Of a stretch of 64,000 nucleotides of DNA, positions 101 through 35,700 are shown piece by piece. The stretch lies in assembly GCF_988243305.1 (NCBI RefSeq), contig NZ_OZ547136.1; one strand, given 5' to 3'. Under the pieces are notes generated by a model. That model worked only from the letters and a program-made list of their open reading frames with translations, was not told the DNA's origin and did no database searches. Numbering within the stretch: the stretch's first letter is position 1; the number at the start of each line of letters is the position of its first letter. The position numbers and the translations under genes are program-made.

Positions 101-290
<190 letters not shown>

Positions 291-26210: not shown

Positions 26211-28157
26211 TCAGCAACGGCTTAAATCAGCCTGCGCCTGAGCCAGTTTTTCTGCCGCCTGACGTAACGGTTCCATCAACGGCATGGTCCGTGCTGGAGC
26301 ATGAAGGCGGAATCGCTGCAACTCTGTCGCACCGACAGTCAGCGCCGATTCCAGCCGATGTCGTTTGGCGGCCATTTTTGCCATTACCGCTTGTCTGTCT
26401 GCAGGCGTTACCGCTTCGTTCGGCCTGAAAACAAAACGGCGTTCGCAACTCGCTTTCCAGTCGATAACCGCCTGGGTCAGATGATCACCAAAACCTTTTA
26501 CTTGCTTAACGCTCCGTCGGGTAACGTCTGCCGCCGTTTCAATACCAAAGGACCGTAACGCCGCTTTACGCGCAGGGCCAACGCCGGGAATAGAGGCAAC
26601 ATCAATAAAAAATCCCTCCAGAAACTTCTGCTTCTGCCGTTCCCTTGCGGTGTCCTGAAGTGCTGCCAGATCGCGCTTTTCTTCTTCCGGTAACCCAAGA
26701 ATTTCGTCCTTCATTTTTTCGAGCATCGTCCGTTTGGCGATAAAACCTTCCAGCCCGCCCAACCGTTGGATCTGGCTGACTAAATGGTCATAGTCCATTT
26801 TCGCGCGATTAAACGCCTCACGGCGTTGCTGGATTTCTGCTTTGTACGCTTTGCTTGTCAGGCTGCCAATAATCCAGATAGCCGCCAGCACAGGAACCAA
26901 AATAATATAACGCGGTTCTGCCTGAAGGCCGCAAAGCAACAGCGATAACGCTGACAGTGCGATCTCAATCAGAATGATGTATTCGCGCCGTAACAGGCCT
27001 AAAGGAAGCGGCCTGCCAGTCAGTTGGAAATGATCGGGTAATGGCAGTTGCAATGCTGGCGGTGCTACTGACGCCATCACCATCGCCCAGACTTTCGCCA
27101 GCACAAAATCACCGCTGGTGGTAATGACCTCTTCGCCGAGATCAATAAAATAGATAACGCCTTGATTATCCAGCGCACACCACGGGCAGTCAGTCAAATG
27201 ACCGGGGTAAACATGCATTGCCGAAACGGTACATTTCTTTAACTGTTGGCGTAGTAAATCAAGTGCCGCAACCCACGCTTTTGCCGTCGGACGCCCGGTT
27301 GCCACGCCACTTTCCGTGAATGCCTGCTGAAACATGGTTTCAACATCGCCCGGTAACATCGACAGCGGAATAGATCGTGGCGGCGGTTTTAAACCACGTC
27401 GCTGATTATCTGACGCGTAGGCATAACGGAAATGGGCAATATCCGTCTCCAGTGCATTACCCGCATCAGAGACAAGCGGTACACCGGAATAAGGATGCCG
27501 CCCACCAAACAAGACGTGAAAAATCAGCAACGCAAGGCCAAAATTATCGTGATTCGCGGTGCGTTCAAAGCCGACAAATGATGGCAAGGTTTGCAGCTCT
27601 GGCGGCGTAAAATGCGACACGCCGACTTCGCATAAATGCAGCGTGCCATTGGCGTTAATCTGAAAGGAGTCGCTATCAATCAACACCACTTTGCTGTCAC
27701 GGCCTACCATAAAGCTGTTCTGGTTTACGTCACCCACGACATGCCCGTGCTCGTGAACCGTAGCAAAAGATGAAGCAATATTGCGCGCAACATAGAGTAG
27801 AAAATCCCACGCACAATGAGGGTAACGTTGGCGACGATGTGCCGGGCTATAGATCATATGAATCGGTTCTTTACCAGAAACTTTTGGCATCATAAAACCG
27901 ATAACCTTTCCGCCTCGTCCACCGTGAAGCGTTGCCTGCGGCCAGGCGACATAATTCAACAATTGCGCGTCAGCTGTCGCAGCCATAAAGGCAAGTTTGT
28001 CCTGTTTTAAGGCGGGTGGCGGCGTGTGATAAATCTTGGCGACACTATCGACAAACTCCTCGATATCATAAACCGCGCCTTCGCCACCTTTTCCCAGTTC
28101 ACGCCCGAGAGTGGTCAATTCACCTGTCGATGTAAATACTTTTATATTTGTCTTCAT
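26211..28157 (-). CDS. yegI: Membrane-associated Ser/Thr protein kinase-like protein YegI (N-terminal kinase-like domain, two predicted TM helices, C-terminal helix-hairpin-helix region)
   Basis: 648-aa ORF. Gly-rich loop LGKGGEGAV (res 21-29), candidate catalytic region HGHVVGDVNQN (137-147) and LIDSDS (159-164). Hydrophobic stretches at res ~393-433 (YIILIEIALSALSLLLCG / YIILVPVLAAIWIIGSL). HhH-like motifs IPGVGPARKAALRSFGIETAADV and VKGFGDHLTQAV (res ~521-565). Confidence 0.85.
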   Translation of the reverse strand: MKTNIKVFTSTGELTTLGRELGKGGEGAVYDIEEFVDSVAKIYHTPPPALKQDKLAFMAATADAQLLNYVAWPQATLHGGRGGKVIGFMMPKVSGKEPIHMIYSPAHRRQRYPHCAWDFLLYVARNIASSFATVHEHGHVVGDVNQNSFMVGRDSKVVLIDSDSFQINANGTLHLCEVGVSHFTPPELQTLPSFVGFERTANHDNFGLALLIFHVLFGGRHPYSGVPLVSDAGNALETDIAHFRYAYASDNQRRGLKPPPRSIPLSMLPGDVETMFQQAFTESGVATGRPTAKAWVAALDLLRQQLKKCTVSAMHVYPGHLTDCPWCALDNQGVIYFIDLGEEVITTSGDFVLAKVWAMVMASVAPPALQLPLPDHFQLTGRPLPLGLLRREYIILIEIALSALSLLLCGLQAEPRYIILVPVLAAIWIIGSLTSKAYKAEIQQRREAFNRAKMDYDHLVSQIQRLGGLEGFIAKRTMLEKMKDEILGLPEEEKRDLAALQDTARERQKQKFLEGFFIDVASIPGVGPARKAALRSFGIETAADVTRRSVKQVKGFGDHLTQAVIDWKASCERRFVFRPNEAVTPADRQAVMAKMAAKRHRLESALTVGATELQRFRLHAPARTMPLMEPLRQAAEKLAQAQADLSRC

Positions 28158-28357
28158 AATGTTTTAAGGGCAGTCATATTATATTTTAATGAATAATAAC
28201 ACTGCCCATTATAATTATTTCCATATTGGAAGAGTCCCACTCAAGAATAAAAATGATAATGCAATTTCATCAGGATACAATTCAATTCCAACCTGATAAT
28301 GATTCACTTCCACAGATTTTTTGCTAACTTTTACTACACAGGGATTCTGGAAAAAAG

Positions 28358-28819
28358 ATGAAAAAGATATTACTTATGTTGAGTCTGCTATTTTTTACTA
28401 CCGCGGGCTTTAGTGAAGTTTCGGATACGTTAGTGACGGGAGGTTATGATAAACAAGCGATGTCTGACGCCATTCAACATGCGCGGAAAGAAACCGATCA
28501 ATTCATCGAAATTATGAATAAAAAAGATGCCGATACTTTCGCGGTCAAAGCCCCGATAACCGATCACGGAAGAACAGAGCATTTCTGGCTTACGGATGTC
28601 ACTTATTCTAACGGCATGTTTATTGGCGTAATAAGCAATGACCCTGGTATTGTTACAAACGTAGAATATGGTCAGGAGTGGAAAATCAAGAAAGAAGATA
28701 TTTCAGACTGGATGTATACGCGCGGGGATAAAATTTACGGCGGTTATACCATTGATCCTTTATTAGTCACCTATCCAAAAGAAGAAGCCGACGAGCTAAG
28801 AGCAAAATTAGTTCGCTAA
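28358..28819 (+). CDS. yegJ: Secreted/periplasmic DUF2314-family protein YegJ
   Basis: 153-aa ORF with an N-terminal signal peptide (MKKILLMLSLLFFTTAGFS); divergent from yegI and convergent with pphC. Confidence 0.75.
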   Translation: MKKILLMLSLLFFTTAGFSEVSDTLVTGGYDKQAMSDAIQHARKETDQFIEIMNKKDADTFAVKAPITDHGRTEHFWLTDVTYSNGMFIGVISNDPGIVTNVEYGQEWKIKKEDISDWMYTRGDKIYGGYTIDPLLVTYPKEEADELRAKLVR

Positions 28820-28846
28820 CCAGCCATTATATTGATTGCTTAAACT

Positions 28847-28874
28847 GGCGGTTGAACTGTTGTCTTCAACCGCC
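28847..28874. terminator. Perfect 10-bp stem hairpin between convergent yegJ and pphC (candidate bidirectional terminator)
   Basis: ggcggttgaa-ctgttgtc-ttcaaccgcc read directly; lies in the 64-bp gap between the two stop codons. No strong U-tract on either side. Confidence 0.5.
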
Positions 28875-28883
28875 ATGCGATGT

Positions 28884-29645
28884 TCATTCTGTCCACAGCG
28901 CCAGTGCCAACGTTTTATCATCATCCGTACGCTCGTTTACCGCCGGGCTGGACAAAAACTGCTTTAACAATTCAGGTAATAAATCGAGTTGTTCCTGCGT
29001 TGCTGACGCCAGTCCATTGAAAAACGGGGTAAAAAAAGGCACATGCGGAGAATTATTCAACATATTTAACGCCAGCCTCTGAATACCATCCGTAAATGCT
29101 GCAACTTTATGCGCACGCTCAGTACTGGTGTAAGTTTCCAGTCTGGAAACAGCATCGTCATCGGTAATGAAGTGCGTCATGTTGGCATATTCACCCACCA
29201 TCGGCGTGAGAGGCAATTGCAGACCGTGACCCAAATCTACCACCATGCCGCCATCGCCAATCTGCATAATCAAGGTGCCGTCAGGCGATGAAATCAGTCC
29301 CAGAAATGTACAGGCAAAATCGCGAACCGCTAATTCTTTGGCCTCTGCCTCGGCAAAAAGTCGCTGACGAATGGTCAGCACAATATCCGTGGCGAGGACA
29401 TCATTAAGCCCCAATTCCCCACCCTGCACTTTTTGCGACATATAAGCCATCGCTTCATTGACGGCGAGCATCGCGCCTTCGCCACCCTGCGAGACGCTGC
29501 CTGCGCCATCAGCGACAAATACCGACAATAATGGCTGCTGGTCATTTAACCAGGCAACCTGCATCTGGCAGGCATCCTGGCAAGGCAAGTCCGCGCTGAT
29601 GTGCGACGTTCCAACGGTTGATGCATAGACCAGACGCCAGCTCAC
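28884..29645 (-). CDS. pphC: PP2C-family Ser/Thr protein phosphatase PphC (YegK)
   Basis: 253-aa ORF with PP2C-like metal-binding aspartate motifs ([20 protein letters not shown]). Start codon overlaps the yegL stop by 4 nt. Confidence 0.85.
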
Positions 29646-30301
29646 ACTGACGTCCAGCCTTTTGGCGCTTCCAGCACAACTTCCGTTCCCGGCGTGGAGC
29701 GGGAAACCGAACGCAGCGAACTGGATAACCAGCTAAACAGTTCACGGAATTGTAATCCCTGCAGTGGCAAAGGCTGACGAACGCTGATTTGTGCCAAAGT
29801 CTTCATATCCGCCCCCTGAACACCGATGGAAAAGAAGGCAAACTTCTTATCTTCTTCCCCCTGAAACACTTTGTTGGCGGCAGCCTGCCACTCATCGGTT
29901 GGAGCGCCATCGGTGATCAGGAAAATCCACGGGCGATAATAGGAAATACCATTGGCGCGATACTCACGTTTGCGCTCCTCAACCATATCCAGGGCTTTGG
30001 TAATGGCGGCCCCCATTGGTGTATCGCCCTGGGCAAACAGGATGGGCGGGAAAAAATTAGCGGCGCTGGTAAAGGGTTGTTCCACATGCACCGGGCCGAA
30101 CGTCACAATACCGAGTTCCACTCTTTTTAAGGCCAGCGGATCGGCAAGCAGTTCATCGCGAAAGGTAACCAATCCGGCGTTAAGTTCATTAATAGGTCTA
30201 CCACTCATCGAACCAGAAACATCCAACAGCAAAATGCAGGGGCAACGTGGTTCCGGGTTACTGGCAAAATCGCTGGTGGCAAACGTGATTTGTTCGCTCA
30301 T
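29642..30301 (-). CDS. yegL: von Willebrand factor A (vWA) domain protein YegL, TerY-like
   Basis: 219-aa ORF with a MIDAS motif DVSGSMSG (res 27-34) and conserved v[11 protein letters not shown]. Confidence 0.85.
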
Positions 30302-30480
30302 AAGAAATCCTTTCTTAGAGAATTATTGAGGTCCGGTATCATACCGATTGCAATAATGAAATAAGAGCAAACGAAGAAACTTTCAGAATTAGGCCCGGCG
30401 GCGCAGAAAATTTTGCTATTCGCCTCGCAAGAACGGAGAGCCGTCGATTGACACTAAGGGCGGAGTGACATAATTTCAGG

Positions 30481-30628
30481 AGTGAGGGTTAGGGAGAGGT
30501 TTCTCCCTCCCCCTGGTGTTCTTAGTAAGCCTGGAAGCTAATCACTAAGAGTATCTCCAGTATGATGACGTGCTTCATCATAACCCTTTCCTTATTAAAA
30601 GCCCTCTTCTCCGGGAGAGGGTTTCCCG
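30481..30628 (+). ncRNA. sibA: Sib-family antisense sRNA (antitoxin), copy 1; boundaries approximate
   Basis: Plus-strand region fully antisense to the ibs ORF, preceded by a CATAAT -10-like hexamer (30469-30474) and ending at a GC-rich hairpin plus T-rich tract (gccctcttctccgggagagggtttcccgttt, ~30601-30628). Confidence 0.5.
30522..30581 (-). CDS. ibsA: Ibs-family type I toxin peptide, copy 1 (19 aa: MMKHVIILEILLVISFQAY)
   Basis: Minus-strand ATGATGAAG...TAA ORF read by hand; matches the Ibs hydrophobic peptide pattern MMK-h(15)-AY. Confidence 0.6.
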   Translation of the reverse strand: MMKHVIILEILLVISFQAY

Positions 30629-30815
30629 TTTCAGCGTCCCGCTGAAATCGTCGGCTTACCTCCTTTCGCCCTGAATGCAGTCTATCGCTAACGCGTGAAC
30701 AAAATAGTTTCCTCTGTGATTATTGCGTAACGACTCGCAAAGAATATTTGCTGGCAGGATCGCAGACTGAAAAGCCTGCAGATTGACAATCTTATCGTGA
30801 AGGCATAATTTCAGG

Positions 30816-30958
30816 AGTGAGGGTAGAGCGGGGTTTCCCCCGCCCTGGTAGTCTTAGTAAGCCGGGAAGCTTATGACTAAGAGCACCACGATGATGATCC
30901 ACTTCATCATGACCCTTTCCTTATTTAAGGCCCCTTCCTCGGGAGGGGCTTTCCCGTT
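30816..30958 (+). ncRNA. Sib-family antisense sRNA, copy 2; boundaries approximate
   Basis: Same arrangement as copy 1: CATAAT at 30804-30809, hairpin ggccccttcctcgggaggggcttt followed by a T-rich tract ending ~30958. Confidence 0.5.
30854..30910 (-). CDS. Ibs-family type I toxin peptide, copy 2 (18 aa: MMKWIIIVVLLVISFPAY)
   Basis: Minus-strand ORF read by hand inside repeat unit 2. Confidence 0.6.
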   Translation of the reverse strand: MMKWIIIVVLLVISFPAY

Positions 30959-31143
30959 TCAGCGTCCCGCTGAAATCGTCGGCTTACCTCCTTTCGCCCT
31001 GAATGCAGTCTATCGCTAACGCGTGAACAAAATAGTTTCCTCTGTGATTATTGCGTAACGACTCGCAAAGAATATTTGCTGGCAGGATCGCAGACTGCAA
31101 AGCCTGCAGATTGACAATCTTATCGTGAAGGCATAATTTCAGG

Positions 31144-31284
31144 AGTGAGGGTAGAGCGGGGTTTCCCCCGCCCTGGTAGTCTTAGTATGCTGGGTAGCTA
31201 ATCACTAAGAGCACCACGATGATGAGTAGCTTCATCATGACCCTTTCCTTATTTATGGCCCCTTCCTCGGGAGGGGCTTTCCCG
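31144..31284 (+). ncRNA. sibB: Sib-family antisense sRNA, copy 3; boundaries approximate
   Basis: Same arrangement: CATAAT at 31132-31137, hairpin and T-tract ending ~31284. Confidence 0.5.
31182..31238 (-). CDS. ibsB: Ibs-family type I toxin peptide, copy 3 (18 aa: MMKLLIIVVLLVISYPAY)
   Basis: Minus-strand ORF read by hand inside repeat unit 3; closest to IbsB as I recall it. Confidence 0.6.
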   Translation of the reverse strand: MMKLLIIVVLLVISYPAY

Positions 31285-31516: not shown

Positions 31517-32764
31517 ATGAAAGGCAGTTATAAATCCCGTTGGGTAATCGTAATCGTGGTGGTTATCGCCGCCATCGCCGCATTCTGGTTCTGGCAAGGC
31601 CGCAATGACTCCCGGAGTGCAGCCCCAGGGGCGACGAAACAAGCGCAGCAATCGCCAGCGGGTGGTCGCCGTGGTATGCGTTCCGGCCCATTAGCCCCGG
31701 TTCAGGCGGCGACCGCCGTAGAACAGGCAGTTCCGCGTTACCTCACCGGGCTTGGCACCATTACCGCCGCTAATACTGTTACGGTGCGCAGCCGCGTGGA
31801 CGGTCAACTGATGGCGTTACATTTCCAGGAAGGCCAGCAGGTCAAAGCAGGCGATTTACTGGCAGAAATTGACCCAAGCCAGTTCAAAGTTGCATTAGCA
31901 CAAGCCCAGGGCCAACTGGCAAAAGATAAAGCCACGCTTGCCAACGCCCGCCGTGACCTGGCGCGTTATCAGCAACTGGCAAAAACCAATCTCGTATCTC
32001 GTCAGGAACTGGATGCCCAACAAGCGCTGGTCAGTGAAACCGAAGGCACCATTAAGGCTGATGAAGCAAGCGTCGCCAGCGCGCAGCTGCAACTCGACTG
32101 GAGCCGCATCACCGCACCAGTCGATGGTCGCGTTGGTCTCAAGCAGGTTGATGTTGGTAACCAAATCTCCAGTGGTGATACCACCGGGATTGTGGTGATC
32201 ACCCAGACGCATCCTATCGATTTGCTCTTTACCCTGCCGGAAAGCGATATCGCTACCGTAGTACAGGCGCAAAAAGCCGGAAAACCGCTGGTTGTTGAAG
32301 CCTGGGATCGCACCAACTCGAAGAAATTAAGTGAAGGCACGCTGTTAAGTCTCGATAACCAAATCGATGCCACTACCGGTACGATTAAAGTGAAAGCACG
32401 CTTTAATAATCAGGATGATGCGCTGTTTCCCAATCAGTTTGTTAACGCGCGTATGTTAGTCGACACCGAACAAAACGCCGTGGTGATCCCCACCGCCGCT
32501 CTGCAAATGGGCAACGAAGGCCATTTTGTCTGGGTGCTGAATAGCGAAAACAAGGTCAGCAAACATCTGGTGACGCCGGGCATTCAGGACAGTCAGAAAG
32601 TGGTGATCCGCGCAGGTATTTCTGCGGGCGACCGCGTAGTGACGGATGGCATTGATCGCCTGACCGAAGGGGCGAAAGTGGAAGTGGTGGAAGCCCAGAG
32701 CGCCACCACTTCGGAAGAGAAAGCCACCAGCCGCGAATACGCGAAAAAAGGAGCACGCTCCTGA
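31517..32764 (+). CDS. mdtA: Multidrug efflux RND membrane fusion (periplasmic adaptor) protein MdtA
   Basis: ORF track gives 455 aa; I start at [26 protein letters not shown] (415 aa, ATG 31517), preceded by an RBS. Confidence 0.9.
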
Positions 32765-35700
32765 TGCAGGTGTTACCCCCGAGCAGCACAGGCGGCCCGT
32801 CGCGCCTGTTTATTATGCGTCCTGTCGCCACCACGCTGCTGATGGTGGCGATCTTACTCGCCGGGATTATCGGTTATCGAGCACTGCCCGTTTCGGCGCT
32901 ACCGGAAGTGGACTATCCGACCATTCAGGTAGTCACGCTCTACCCAGGTGCGAGCCCGGATGTCATGACCTCTGCCGTTACCGCGCCGCTTGAACGCCAG
33001 TTTGGGCAGATGTCTGGCCTGAAACAGATGTCGTCGCAAAGTTCCGGCGGTGCGTCAGTTATCACCTTACAGTTCCAGCTAACATTACCGCTCGATGTCG
33101 CCGAGCAGGAAGTGCAGGCCGCGATTAACGCTGCGACCAACTTGTTGCCGAGCGATCTGCCTAACCCGCCGGTTTACAGCAAAGTGAACCCGGCAGATCC
33201 ACCAATCATGACGCTCGCCGTCACCTCAACCGCCATGCCAATGACGCAAGTGGAAGATATGGTGGAAACCCGCGTCGCGCAGAAAATCTCGCAGATTTCC
33301 GGCGTCGGCCTGGTGACACTTTCCGGCGGTCAGCGTCCGGCTGTTCGCGTCAAACTTAACGCTCAGGCGATTGCCGCCCTCGGCCTGACCAGCGAAACCG
33401 TGCGCACCGCCATTACCGGCGCTAACGTCAACTCGGCAAAAGGTAGCCTCGACGGCCCTTCTCGTGCGGTTACGCTTTCCGCGAACGACCAGATGCAATC
33501 CGCCGAAGAGTATCGCCAGCTAATCATCGCCTACCAGAACGGCGCACCGATTCGTCTGGGCGATGTCGCAACCGTAGAGCAAGGTGCAGAAAACAGCTGG
33601 CTTGGCGCATGGGCTAACAAAGAACAGGCCATTGTGATGAATGTTCAGCGCCAGCCCGGTGCTAACATTATCTCCACCGCCGACAGCATCCGGCAGATGC
33701 TGCCACAACTCACCGAGAGTTTGCCGAAATCGGTAAAAGTGACGGTACTTTCTGACCGTACCACCAATATTCGCGCATCCGTCGATGATACTCAGTTTGA
33801 ATTGATGATGGCTATCGCGCTGGTAGTCATGATTATCTACCTGTTTTTGCGTAATATTCCGGCGACTATCATTCCCGGCGTCGCAGTGCCGCTGTCGTTA
33901 ATCGGCACCTTCGCGGTCATGGTGTTTCTCGATTTTTCAATCAATAACCTGACGCTGATGGCGTTAACTATCGCCACCGGATTTGTGGTCGATGACGCCA
34001 TCGTGGTGATCGAAAACATTTCCCGCTATATCGAAAAAGGCGAAAAACCGTTGGCGGCGGCGCTCAAAGGCGCGGGTGAAATCGGCTTTACCATTATCTC
34101 GCTGACCTTCTCACTGATTGCAGTGTTGATCCCACTGCTATTTATGGGCGATATCGTCGGGCGACTGTTCCGCGAATTTGCTATTACTCTGGCAGTCGCG
34201 ATTTTGATCTCAGCCGTGGTGTCGCTGACTCTGACGCCGATGATGTGCGCGCGGATGCTCAGCCAGGAGTCGCTGCGTAAACAGAATCGCTTCTCCCGAG
34301 CCTCGGAGAAAATGTTCGACAGGATAATCGCCGCCTATGGTCGTGGACTGGCGAAAGTGCTGAATCATCCGTGGCTGACCTTAAGCGTGGCACTCAGCAC
34401 GCTGCTGCTTAGTGTTCTCTTGTGGGTATTCATTCCGAAAGGTTTCTTCCCGGTACAGGACAACGGCATTATTCAGGGCACTTTGCAGGCACCGCAATCC
34501 AGCTCCTTTGCCAATATGGCCCAGCGGCAACGCCAGGTCGCGGATGTGATTTTGCAGGATCCGGCAGTGCAAAGCCTGACCTCATTTGTTGGCGTTGATG
34601 GCACTAACCCGTCGCTGAACAGTGCGCGTTTGCAGATCAACCTCAAACCACTGGATGAACGAGATGACCGGGTGCAAAAAGTCATCGCCCGTCTGCAAAC
34701 GGCGGTGGATAAAGTGCCGGGCGTCGATCTCTTCCTGCAACCAACGCAGGACCTGACCATCGATACTCAGGTCAGCCGCACCCAGTACCAGTTTACCTTG
34801 CAGGCCACGTCACTGGATGCGCTCAGTACCTGGGTGCCACAGTTGATGGAAAAACTCCAGCAGCTGCCACAGCTTTCTGATGTCTCCAGCGACTGGCAGG
34901 ACAAAGGGCTGGTGGCGTATGTCAATGTCGACAGGGACAGCGCCAGCCGTCTGGGGATCAGCATGGCGGATGTCGATAACGCCCTGTACAACGCGTTTGG
35001 TCAGCGACTGATTTCCACTATTTATACTCAGGCTAACCAGTATCGCGTGGTGCTGGAACACAACACCGAAAATACCCCAGGCCTCGCGGCGCTGGATACC
35101 ATTCGCCTGACCAGCAGCGACGGTGGCGTGGTGCCGTTAAGCTCAATTGCCAAAATTGAGCAGCGTTTTGCGCCGCTTTCCATCAACCATCTGGATCAGT
35201 TCCCGGTAACGACTATCTCCTTTAACGTGCCGGATAACTATTCGCTGGGCGATGCGGTGCAGGCGATTATGGACACAGAGAAGACGCTGAATCTGCCGGT
35301 GGATATCACCACGCAGTTCCAGGGCAGCACCCTCGCCTTCCAGTCGGCATTGGGCAGCACTGTCTGGCTGATTGTCGCGGCGGTGGTGGCGATGTATATC
35401 GTGCTCGGCATTCTGTACGAGAGCTTTATTCACCCGATCACCATTCTCTCGACGCTACCCACCGCAGGGGTCGGCGCACTGCTGGCGTTAATGATTGCCG
35501 GTAGCGAGCTGGATGTGATTGCGATTATCGGCATTATTTTGCTGATCGGTATCGTGAAGAAGAACGCCATCATGATGATCGACTTCGCGCTGGCTGCTGA
35601 GCGCGAGCAAGGCATGTCGCCGCGCGAGGCAATCTACCAGGCTTGTCTGTTGCGTTTTCGTCCGATCCTGATGACCACTCTGGCGGCTCTGCTTGGCGCA

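What the first reader, a model, noticed from the sequence alone, without database searches (positions are those of the whole stretch)
30522..30581. First Ibs copy carries polar substitutions in the hydrophobic core (possibly attenuated toxin)
Copy 1 translates to MMKHVIILEILLVISFQAY, with Glu in the middle of the predicted membrane helix and Gln near the C-terminus, whereas copies 2 and 3 are fully hydrophobic with Pro near the C-terminus (MMKWIIIVVLLVISFPAY, MMKLLIIVVLLVISYPAY). A charged residue within an ~18-aa membrane-inserting toxin might reduce toxicity, so this copy may be degenerating or functionally divergent.
Basis: inference. Interest (0 to 1): 0.35.

Follow-up and report, generated by a model that had tools for sequence, protein, structure and literature searches.

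The report
Rare Val9Glu allele of IbsA toxin
This is the well-known E. coli ibsA/SibA toxin-antitoxin gene pair carrying a rare single-base variant that puts a charged glutamate in the middle of the tiny membrane toxin. The variant probably weakens the toxin, but this is untested and the locus is otherwise ordinary.

Summary
Window 30522-30581 (minus strand) encodes MMKHVIILEILLVISFQAY, inside a full-score SIB_RNA (Rfam RF00113) antisense gene. It is the first of three tandem ibs/Sib units between yegL and mdtA, which is the ibsA/SibA position of E. coli.

The two "polar substitutions" are of different kinds:
- **Gln17** is the canonical IbsA residue. K-12 IbsA is MMKHVIILVILLVISFQAY, and Q is one of four normal residues (P/A/Q/H) at that position across the family.
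- **Glu9** is the only real difference. It is one base change, GTG>GAG, at window 30556.

Glu9 is rare. It occurs in 15 of 5,426 complete E. coli genomes, against 4,309 with the K-12 ORF base for base. It is always linked to a second SNP at 30504, and RefSeq already holds it as WP_072146903.1. In 150 natural Ibs ORFs sampled from metagenomes, position 9 is always V or I and no charged residue occurs at positions 5-16.

The ribosome-binding site, start, stop and SibA promoter show no other change, so there is no further sign of decay. The best reading is a lineage-restricted missense allele, carried on a shared ~670-nt tract, that probably attenuates the toxin. Toxicity cannot be tested here, and Ibs peptides are known to tolerate many mutations. 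This is a known system of low novelty.

The parts
30522..30581 (-). ibsA ORF (19 codons plus stop), V9E allele: MMKHVIILEILLVISFQAY
   Evidence: Translation. 59 of 60 nt identical to K-12 ibsA b4667. Same position between yegL and mdtA.
30556..30556 (.). The SNP that makes Glu9. It is T on the + strand (K-12 has A), so codon 9 is GAG instead of GTG. It is also position +73 of SibA.
   Evidence: Present in 15 of 5,426 complete E. coli genomes, against 4,459 with the K-12 41-mer.
30504..30504 (.). Second SNP (T; K-12 has C) at SibA +21, which is in the ibsA 3' UTR hairpin. It is in complete linkage with 30556.
   Evidence: The 81-nt haplotype query gives 15 exact matches, and the next best matches are at 97.5%, so no genome carries only one of the two SNPs.
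30484..30627 (+). SibA antitoxin sRNA (144 nt), fully antisense to ibsA including its ribosome-binding site
   Evidence: Coordinates transferred from the K-12 sibA annotation b4436 (alignment). Rfam SIB_RNA match at 30448-30596, 145.9 bits; the model also covers the promoter TTGACA...CATAAT.
30854..30910 (-). Second ibs ORF (18 aa), MMKWIIIVVLLVISFPAY
   Evidence: Identical to RefSeq WP_012767741.1 in strain TR01.
30783..30925 (+). Second Sib RNA gene, including its promoter
   Evidence: Rfam SIB_RNA, 141.6 bits.
31182..31238 (-). Third ibs ORF (18 aa, ibsB-like), MMKLLIIVVLLVISYPAY
31111..31253 (+). Third Sib RNA gene, including its promoter
   Evidence: Rfam SIB_RNA, 143.1 bits.
30333..31001 (.). 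669-nt tract identical to E. coli KE55, one of the 15 genomes with the Glu9 allele. The flanks are 2-6% divergent.
   Evidence: Flank divergence from the E9 carriers: yegL 14/657, pphC 48/761 (shown for two of them).
29642..30301 (-). yegL (vWA-domain protein), the upstream neighbour that fixes the locus as ibsA
   Evidence: ORF. Annotation in K-12 and other genomes.
31518..32765 (+). mdtA, the downstream neighbour

Best explanation
The feature is the ibsA toxin gene of the SibA/IbsA type I toxin-antitoxin unit, the first of three tandem ibs/Sib units between yegL and mdtA.

**How the system works (established knowledge).** ibsA encodes a 19-residue single-helix inner-membrane peptide. The 144-nt SibA RNA is transcribed from the opposite strand. 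It pairs with the ibsA mRNA over the ORF and the ribosome-binding site, blocking translation and triggering decay.

**What is different here (shown).** This copy carries a rare natural allele, V9E (GTG>GAG). It sits on a ~670-nt haplotype tract shared with a small set of E. coli genomes.

**What it most likely does (inferred).**
- A glutamate in the centre of the otherwise purely aliphatic core raises the cost of membrane insertion by roughly 3 kcal/mol.
- This most likely attenuates toxicity, partly or fully.
- The antitoxin stays fully complementary, because the change is mirrored on both strands.
- The allele is tolerated because ibsA is the most dispensable Ibs paralogue. In K-12, cells lacking SibA are viable.

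Gln17 is not part of the variant. It is the normal IbsA residue.
For: **Identity of the locus**
- Rfam SIB_RNA matches at 145.9, 143.1 and 141.6 bits.
- 59 of 60 nt identical to K-12 ibsA, with the same neighbours.

**Rarity**
- The Glu9 41-mer is in 15 of 5,426 genomes, against 4,459 for Val9.
- 4,309 genomes have the K-12 ORF 60/60.

**Real and heritable**
- 15 assemblies from several continents share the exact 81-nt haplotype.
- The 10 carriers I fetched are all annotated WP_072146903.1.
- The window is identical to KE55 over 669 nt.

**Unusual for the family**
- In 133 19-aa Ibs ORFs, position 9 is V (89) or I (44). No charged residue occurs at positions 5-16 in any of 150 ORFs.
- Core hydropathy of the Glu9 peptide is below the minimum of 45 distinct natural Ibs peptides (Kyte-Doolittle 3.02 against 3.19, z = -2.8). 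A Hessa-scale core sum goes from -4.46 to -1.47.

**Literature**
- The hydrophobic centre of IbsC determines toxicity. Toxicity needs residues 6-19 and at least 10 hydrophobic residues (PMC9860968, PMC8309996, both citing Mok 2010).
- SibA-deficient cells are viable, and ibsA expression in a delta-ibsA/sibA strain had no effect on survival (PMC2943612).
Against:
- The ibsC gene tolerates extensive mutation, and even frameshifted IbsC remains toxic (PMC7192591, PMC9860968).
- In the Salmonella IbsA alanine scan, only H3A and L11A abolished activity; I9A did not (bioRxiv 10.1101/2025.05.26.656083).
- The Glu9 peptide still has 10 hydrophobic residues in positions 5-16, and its core is still net hydrophobic.
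- A protonated Glu can sit in a membrane.
- The allele shows no follow-on decay. The ribosome-binding site, start, stop and SibA promoter are unchanged. This is equally compatible with a functional peptide.
Confidence: 0.55

Rival explanations
1. Glu9 is a neutral, hitch-hiking polymorphism and the peptide is still about as toxic as wild type. The allele is rare only because it is young and confined to one lineage or recombination tract.
For: Ibs peptides tolerate many substitutions, and even frameshifts (PMC7192591). I9A in Salmonella IbsA keeps its activity (bioRxiv 10.1101/2025.05.26.656083). All 10 E. coli carriers I fetched share one upstream haplotype, which is consistent with a single origin. 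No other decay is seen in the unit.
Against: Position 9 is V or I in 133 of 133 19-aa Ibs ORFs, and no natural Ibs in the sample has a charge at positions 5-16. Reviews of Mok 2010 name the hydrophobic centre as the determinant of toxicity (PMC9860968, PMC8309996).
Confidence: 0.3
2. The change matters at the RNA level. A73U in SibA, and the mirrored change in ibsA mRNA, opens the base of the P5 stem (CUGGUG/CACCAG) that carries the TRD1 recognition loop. This would alter pairing kinetics, RNA stability or cross-talk with other Sib RNAs, and the amino-acid change would be a by-product.
For: ViennaRNA predicts loss of the U34-A73 pair. On the K-12 background the SibA MFE goes from -54.7 to -51.0 kcal/mol. 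In the mRNA-sense fragment it goes from -56.2 to -52.0, with loss of the mirrored stem. The position is a conserved A in the Rfam consensus. The ibsA ORF is nearly invariant at the nucleotide level, synonymous sites included, which implies constraint on the RNA. In SibC, TRD1 lies in the P5 loop (PMC2943612).
Against: Cis-encoded complementarity is kept automatically. The pair lies outside the four-pair P5 stem in Rfam's consensus structure. The SNP lies just 3' of where SibC's TRD1 (+46 to +68, PMC2943612) would map. The linked SNP at 30504 gives no compensatory effect. The folds are predictions on assumed transcript ends.
Confidence: 0.08
3. The Glu codon is a sequencing or assembly error in this window.
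For: It is a single-base difference from the reference.
Against: The identical 41-nt and 81-nt haplotypes occur in 15 independent complete assemblies, always with the same linked SNP at 30504.
Confidence: 0.01

Closest known systems
E. coli K-12 ibsA (b4667) / sibA (b4436) type I toxin-antitoxin pair
   Same: Same chromosomal position (yegL - ibsA/sibA - ... - mdtA). 59 of 60 ORF bases identical. SibA differs at 3 of 144 bases. Same ribosome-binding site, start, stop and promoter boxes.
   Different: Codon 9 is GAG (Glu) instead of GTG (Val). Linked C>T at SibA +21. One G/C change strengthens the SibA terminator stem. The window has three tandem units where K-12 has two.
RefSeq WP_072146903.1 (ibsA, 'type I toxin-antitoxin system Ibs family toxin') in E. 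coli KE55, MS 69-1, NRZ14408, O7:H15 strain ST70 and others
   Same: Identical Glu9 allele and identical 150-nt SibA/ibsA unit. KE55 is identical over 669 nt.
   Different: Those genomes lack yegJ and differ from the window by 2-6% in yegL and pphC, and by about 2% in mdtA.
IbsC/SibC (E. coli) and Salmonella IbsA
   Same: Same family. A 19-aa MMx-hydrophobic-core-SF-x-A/T-Y peptide with a fully overlapping Sib antisense RNA. These are the experimentally studied members (PMC2943612, PMC8309996, bioRxiv 10.1101/2025.05.26.656083).
   Different: Paralogous loci with different residues at positions 3-4, 9-10, 13-14 and 17. None carries a charge in the core.

Membership tests
Ibs/Sib type I toxin-antitoxin family (Rfam RF00113 SIB_RNA plus Ibs peptide) | Antisense Sib sRNA gene matching the family covariance model above its gathering score | tested here: met
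   145.9 bits against a gathering score of 56, covering the full model 1-147.
Ibs/Sib type I toxin-antitoxin family (Rfam RF00113 SIB_RNA plus Ibs peptide) | An 18-19-codon ORF on the opposite strand, entirely inside the Sib gene, with the AAGGAAAGGG ribosome-binding site and an ATGATG start | tested here: met
   The pattern matches all three units and none of 100 shuffles.
Ibs/Sib type I toxin-antitoxin family (Rfam RF00113 SIB_RNA plus Ibs peptide) | Uninterrupted aliphatic core (positions 5-14 are V/I/L, rarely T or S) with no charged residue | tested here: not met
   Glu at position 9. Of 150 natural Ibs ORFs, none has a charged residue at positions 5-16, and position 9 is always V or I. 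Core hydropathy is outside the natural range. This does not change which family the gene belongs to. It lowers confidence that the peptide is a working toxin.
Ibs/Sib type I toxin-antitoxin family (Rfam RF00113 SIB_RNA plus Ibs peptide) | Growth arrest and membrane depolarisation on overexpression, relieved by the cognate Sib RNA | not testable with these tools
   Needs an induction assay.
ibsA orthologue (as opposed to ibsB-E) | First unit downstream of yegL, 19 aa, MMKHVIIL-ILLVISFQAY, near-identical nucleotide sequence | tested here: met
   59 of 60 nt identical to K-12 ibsA, with the same synteny. PGAP assigns the gene symbol ibsA to the identical allele.
Ibs protein family models (NCBIfam/Pfam) | Score above the curated cut-off of the family HMM | not testable with these tools
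Indirect evidence: PGAP names the identical peptide 'Ibs family toxin' but not 'toxin IbsA'.

The most novel reading that the evidence does not exclude
Glu9 is not a defect but a functional change. One possibility is that a mid-membrane carboxylate drives tighter self-association of the 19-residue helix. Another is that it alters contact with the Fo a/b subunits that Salmonella IbsA is reported to bind. Either would give a toxin with different potency, ion selectivity or pH dependence, and the allele would have been kept and passed between lineages by recombination because it is advantageous.
Probability: 0.07. Interest if true: 0.45.

Novelty: already known. Interest (0 to 1): 0.15.

Why it matters
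The practical value is modest. It gives a naturally occurring single-residue variant of one of the smallest known toxins, present in clinical and environmental E. coli. It could serve as a ready-made test of whether an uninterrupted hydrophobic core is required for Ibs toxicity. It could also test whether ibsA is under weaker selection than its paralogues. It does not reveal a new system or mechanism. The locus, the RNA family and the allele itself (WP_072146903.1) are already in public databases.

Tried and rejected
**Searches that failed or were wasted**
- The exact 41-mer of the Glu9 allele against GTDB species-representative genomes gave 0 hits, so the source genome was not identified.
- A family-wide pattern against the same collection was wasted by my own spacing error: 8 N where 7 were needed. 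I corrected the pattern, checked it on the window, and ran it on metagenome contigs instead.
For the same reason I could not run the Pfam or NCBIfam scans, the look-up of encoding contigs or structure prediction.
- The primary papers were not held: Mok et al. 2010 (PMC3009890) and Fozo et al. 2008 (PMC2597788). Their results are cited only through reviews and Han 2010. One look-up used a wrong PMC id.

**Ideas considered and rejected**
- *The ~790-bp extra segment at 28106-28892 is an IS element and the window is Shigella.* Rejected: it is yegJ, as in K-12, and the window has no long repeats apart from the ibs units and REP elements.
- *The two linked SNPs compensate each other in the SibA fold.* Rejected: C21U changes the MFE by only 0.3 kcal/mol and does not rescue A73U.
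- *The simple sigma-70 scan would find the Sib promoters.* It did not, because their spacer is outside the 16-18 nt it allows. The promoter boxes are seen in the Rfam alignment instead.

Full report
**1. Observation**

The minus strand of window 30522-30581 translates to MMKHVIILEILLVISFQAY followed by a stop. The other two copies are at 30854-30910 (MMKWIIIVVLLVISFPAY) and 31182-31238 (MMKLLIIVVLLVISYPAY).

Each ORF lies antisense inside a full-length match to Rfam RF00113 (SIB_RNA): 145.9, 141.6 and 143.1 bits against a gathering score of 56. Each is preceded by AAGGAAAGGG-NN-ATGATG. The three units lie between yegL (29642-30301, minus strand) and mdtA (starting at 31518, plus strand).

**2. 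What it is**

This is the ibsA/sibA - ibsB/sibB locus of E. coli. In K-12 the order is yegL, sibA/ibsA, sibB/ibsB, mdtA. Most other E. coli genomes carry three units here, annotated ibsA plus two 'Ibs family toxin' genes.

Copy 1 is the ibsA orthologue. It matches K-12 ibsA at 59 of 60 bases. The single difference is GTG>GAG in codon 9, at window 30556 (T on the plus strand, where K-12 has A). K-12 IbsA is MMKHVIILVILLVISFQAY. The Gln near the C-terminus is therefore the reference residue and not a substitution.

Those are 18-residue ibsB-like paralogues with Pro at the equivalent position.

**3. How unusual is each residue?**

*Among E. coli genomes.* In 5,426 complete genomes:

| ibsA status | Genomes | Source |
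|---|---|---|
| 60-nt ORF identical to K-12 | 4,309 | |
| 1-3 mismatches to K-12 | 181 | |
| No ibsA orthologue (best hit is ibsE at about 78-80%) | about 866 | |

I used a 41-nt megablast query centred on the SNP, so that every 28-nt seed word must contain it. It finds the Glu allele in 15 genomes and the Val allele in 4,459.

*Across the family.* I collected 150 Ibs ORFs, 45 of them distinct, from 120 metagenome contigs using a pattern that constrains only the ribosome-binding site and codons 1-2 and 5-7.
- In the 133 peptides of 19 residues, position 9 is V (89) or I (44).
- Positions 8, 11 and 12 are invariant L.
- No peptide has D, E, K or R anywhere in positions 5-16.
- Position 17 is P (78), A (37), Q (12) or H (6).

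So Gln17 is ordinary. Glu9 has no counterpart in this sample.

*Hydropathy.* The Kyte-Doolittle hydropathy of the Glu9 core is 3.02. That is below the minimum (3.19) of the 45 natural peptides (z = -2.8). A position-independent sum on the Hessa 2005 scale goes from -4.46 to -1.47 kcal/mol. The Hessa scale values were recalled from memory, so this figure is approximate.

**4. Is it real, and where did it come from?**

All 15 carriers have the exact 81-nt haplotype of the window. That haplotype includes a second SNP at 30504 (C>T, SibA +21). The next-best genomes are at 97.5% identity, so no genome carries only one of the two changes.

I fetched 10 of the 15 carriers.
- The isolates come from human blood, urine, faeces, colon and a wound swab, from Japan, the USA, Italy and Taiwan (some records give no source or country). 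One of the five carriers not fetched was isolated from an Australian possum.
- All annotate the peptide as WP_072146903.1, gene ibsA, 'type I toxin-antitoxin system Ibs family toxin'.
- They share one upstream haplotype: identical yegD, yegI and pphC proteins in all ten, an identical yegL protein in nine (TUM1226 differs by one base), and no yegJ.
- They fall into at least six downstream haplotypes.

The window is on a different background.
- It has yegJ (28358-28819), as K-12 does.
- It differs from the E9 carriers I compared at 48/761 positions in pphC and 14/657 in yegL.
- Its 150-nt SibA/ibsA unit is identical to theirs (0/150).
- It is identical to strain KE55 over 30333-31001, a run of 669 nt.
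- Its best overall relative, Res13-Lact-PER13-34, differs at 7 positions in that same tract.

The Glu9 unit is therefore shared by descent and has been moved between backgrounds by homologous recombination. It is old enough to be geographically widespread. A sequencing error is excluded.

**5. Mechanism**

*Established knowledge.*
- Ibs peptides are 18-19-residue single-helix inner-membrane toxins. Overproduction depolarises the membrane.
- Sib RNAs (about 140 nt) are fully complementary to the ibs mRNA. They repress it through two recognition domains: TRD1 in the P5 loop, pairing within the ORF, and TRD2, pairing at the translation-initiation region (PMC2943612, PMC4147584, PMC8309996).
- For IbsC, the hydrophobic centre determines toxicity. 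A minimal toxic peptide needs residues 6-19 and at least 10 hydrophobic residues (PMC8309996 and PMC9860968, both citing Mok 2010).
- ibsA is the exception among the five K-12 pairs. SibA-deficient cells are viable, and ibsA expression in a delta-ibsA/sibA strain did not affect survival (PMC2943612).
- Salmonella IbsA is reported to bind the Fo a/b subunits and to need His3 and Leu11 (bioRxiv 10.1101/2025.05.26.656083).

*Inference.* A glutamate in the middle of the helix should make insertion or stable residence in the bilayer less favourable, and so lower toxicity. Because the change is mirrored on both strands, SibA stays perfectly complementary.

*Arguments against.*
- Ibs toxicity is very tolerant of sequence change, including frameshifts (PMC7192591).
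- I9A in Salmonella IbsA stays active (bioRxiv 10.1101/2025.05.26.656083).
- The Glu9 core is still net hydrophobic.
- The unit shows no secondary decay. The ribosome-binding site, start, stop and SibA -35/-10 are unchanged, and the SibA terminator is slightly stronger.

I put attenuation at about 0.55 and 'still toxic, neutral polymorphism' at about 0.3.

**6. RNA-level effect**

In the ViennaRNA minimum-free-energy fold of K-12 SibA, A73 pairs with U34. This extends the P5 stem to CUGGUG/CACCAG. The U allele breaks that pair, and the MFE goes from -54.7 to -51.0 kcal/mol on the K-12 background.

The mirrored stem is lost in an mRNA-sense fragment, where the MFE goes from -56.2 to -52.0. The linked C21U change is energetically negligible and not compensatory.

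The near-invariance of the ORF at the nucleotide level, with 4,309 of 4,490 genomes identical, shows that the DNA is constrained beyond the peptide. An RNA-level role for the SNP therefore cannot be dismissed. However, the pair lies outside Rfam's four-pair consensus stem, and the transcript ends used for the mRNA fold are assumed. I give this rival about 0.08.

**7. Comparison with what is known, and novelty**

The locus is a textbook member of the Ibs/Sib family and the orthologue of K-12 ibsA/sibA. The one family property it fails is the uninterrupted aliphatic core. That affects the claim 'working toxin', not the claim 'ibsA gene'. The allele is already in RefSeq.

The remaining point of interest is a rare natural charge-in-core variant of a 19-residue toxin, which has not been characterised experimentally in anything I could find in the held literature. 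Verdict: known system, ordinary locus, low interest (0.15).

Noticed in passing
window 30988-31088 vs 30660-30760: The spacer between units 2 and 3 is identical to the spacer between units 1 and 2 (0/101 differences). In the three other genomes checked (Res13-Lact-PER13-34, KE55 and WP4-S18-ESBL-07), the two spacers differ at 10-11 positions. This accounts for the cluster of 10 SNPs at 31002-31061 seen against every genome I compared. It suggests intralocus gene conversion or unequal crossing-over in this lineage.
   Followed up: partly
window 18001-43000: The best match among 5,426 complete E. coli genomes is only 98.0-98.2% identical over 25 kb. The intergenic region peaks at 98.5%. The source lineage is therefore not represented in that collection. 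Its identity was not established: there was no hit among GTDB species representatives.
   Followed up: partly
window 28106-28892 (yegJ ORF 28358-28819, + strand): yegJ is a presence/absence polymorphism. It is present here, in K-12 and in Res13-Lact-PER13-34. It is absent, with yegI abutting pphC, in all 10 Glu9 carriers fetched and in O157:H7 TR01.
   Followed up: partly
L009 601-660 (E. coli X14-3); L010 601-660 (E. coli 400660): Other rare ibsA alleles also introduce charged residues: Y19D (MMKHVIILVILLVISFQAD) and M2R (MRKHVIILVILLVISFQAY). C-terminal ...TD variants of other Ibs paralogues also occur in metagenome contigs. The remaining ~164 non-reference alleles were not enumerated.
   Followed up: partly
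window 30504 and 30556: The two SNPs that distinguish this SibA/ibsA unit from the common one are in complete linkage across 5,426 genomes, with no intermediates. Folding gives no sign that one compensates for the other.
   Followed up: yes
window 101-276: Two tandem 88-nt copies, 99% identical, of a REP/BIME-like palindromic element (GCCTGATGCGACGCTG...GCCGCATCCGACA).
   Followed up: no
E. coli genome collection: About 866 of 5,426 complete E. coli genomes have no ibsA-type ORF at all (their best hit is ibsE at 78-80%). Yet 5,220 genomes still cover at least 80% of the three-unit intergenic query. In those strains the first unit is presumably a different Ibs type.
   Followed up: no
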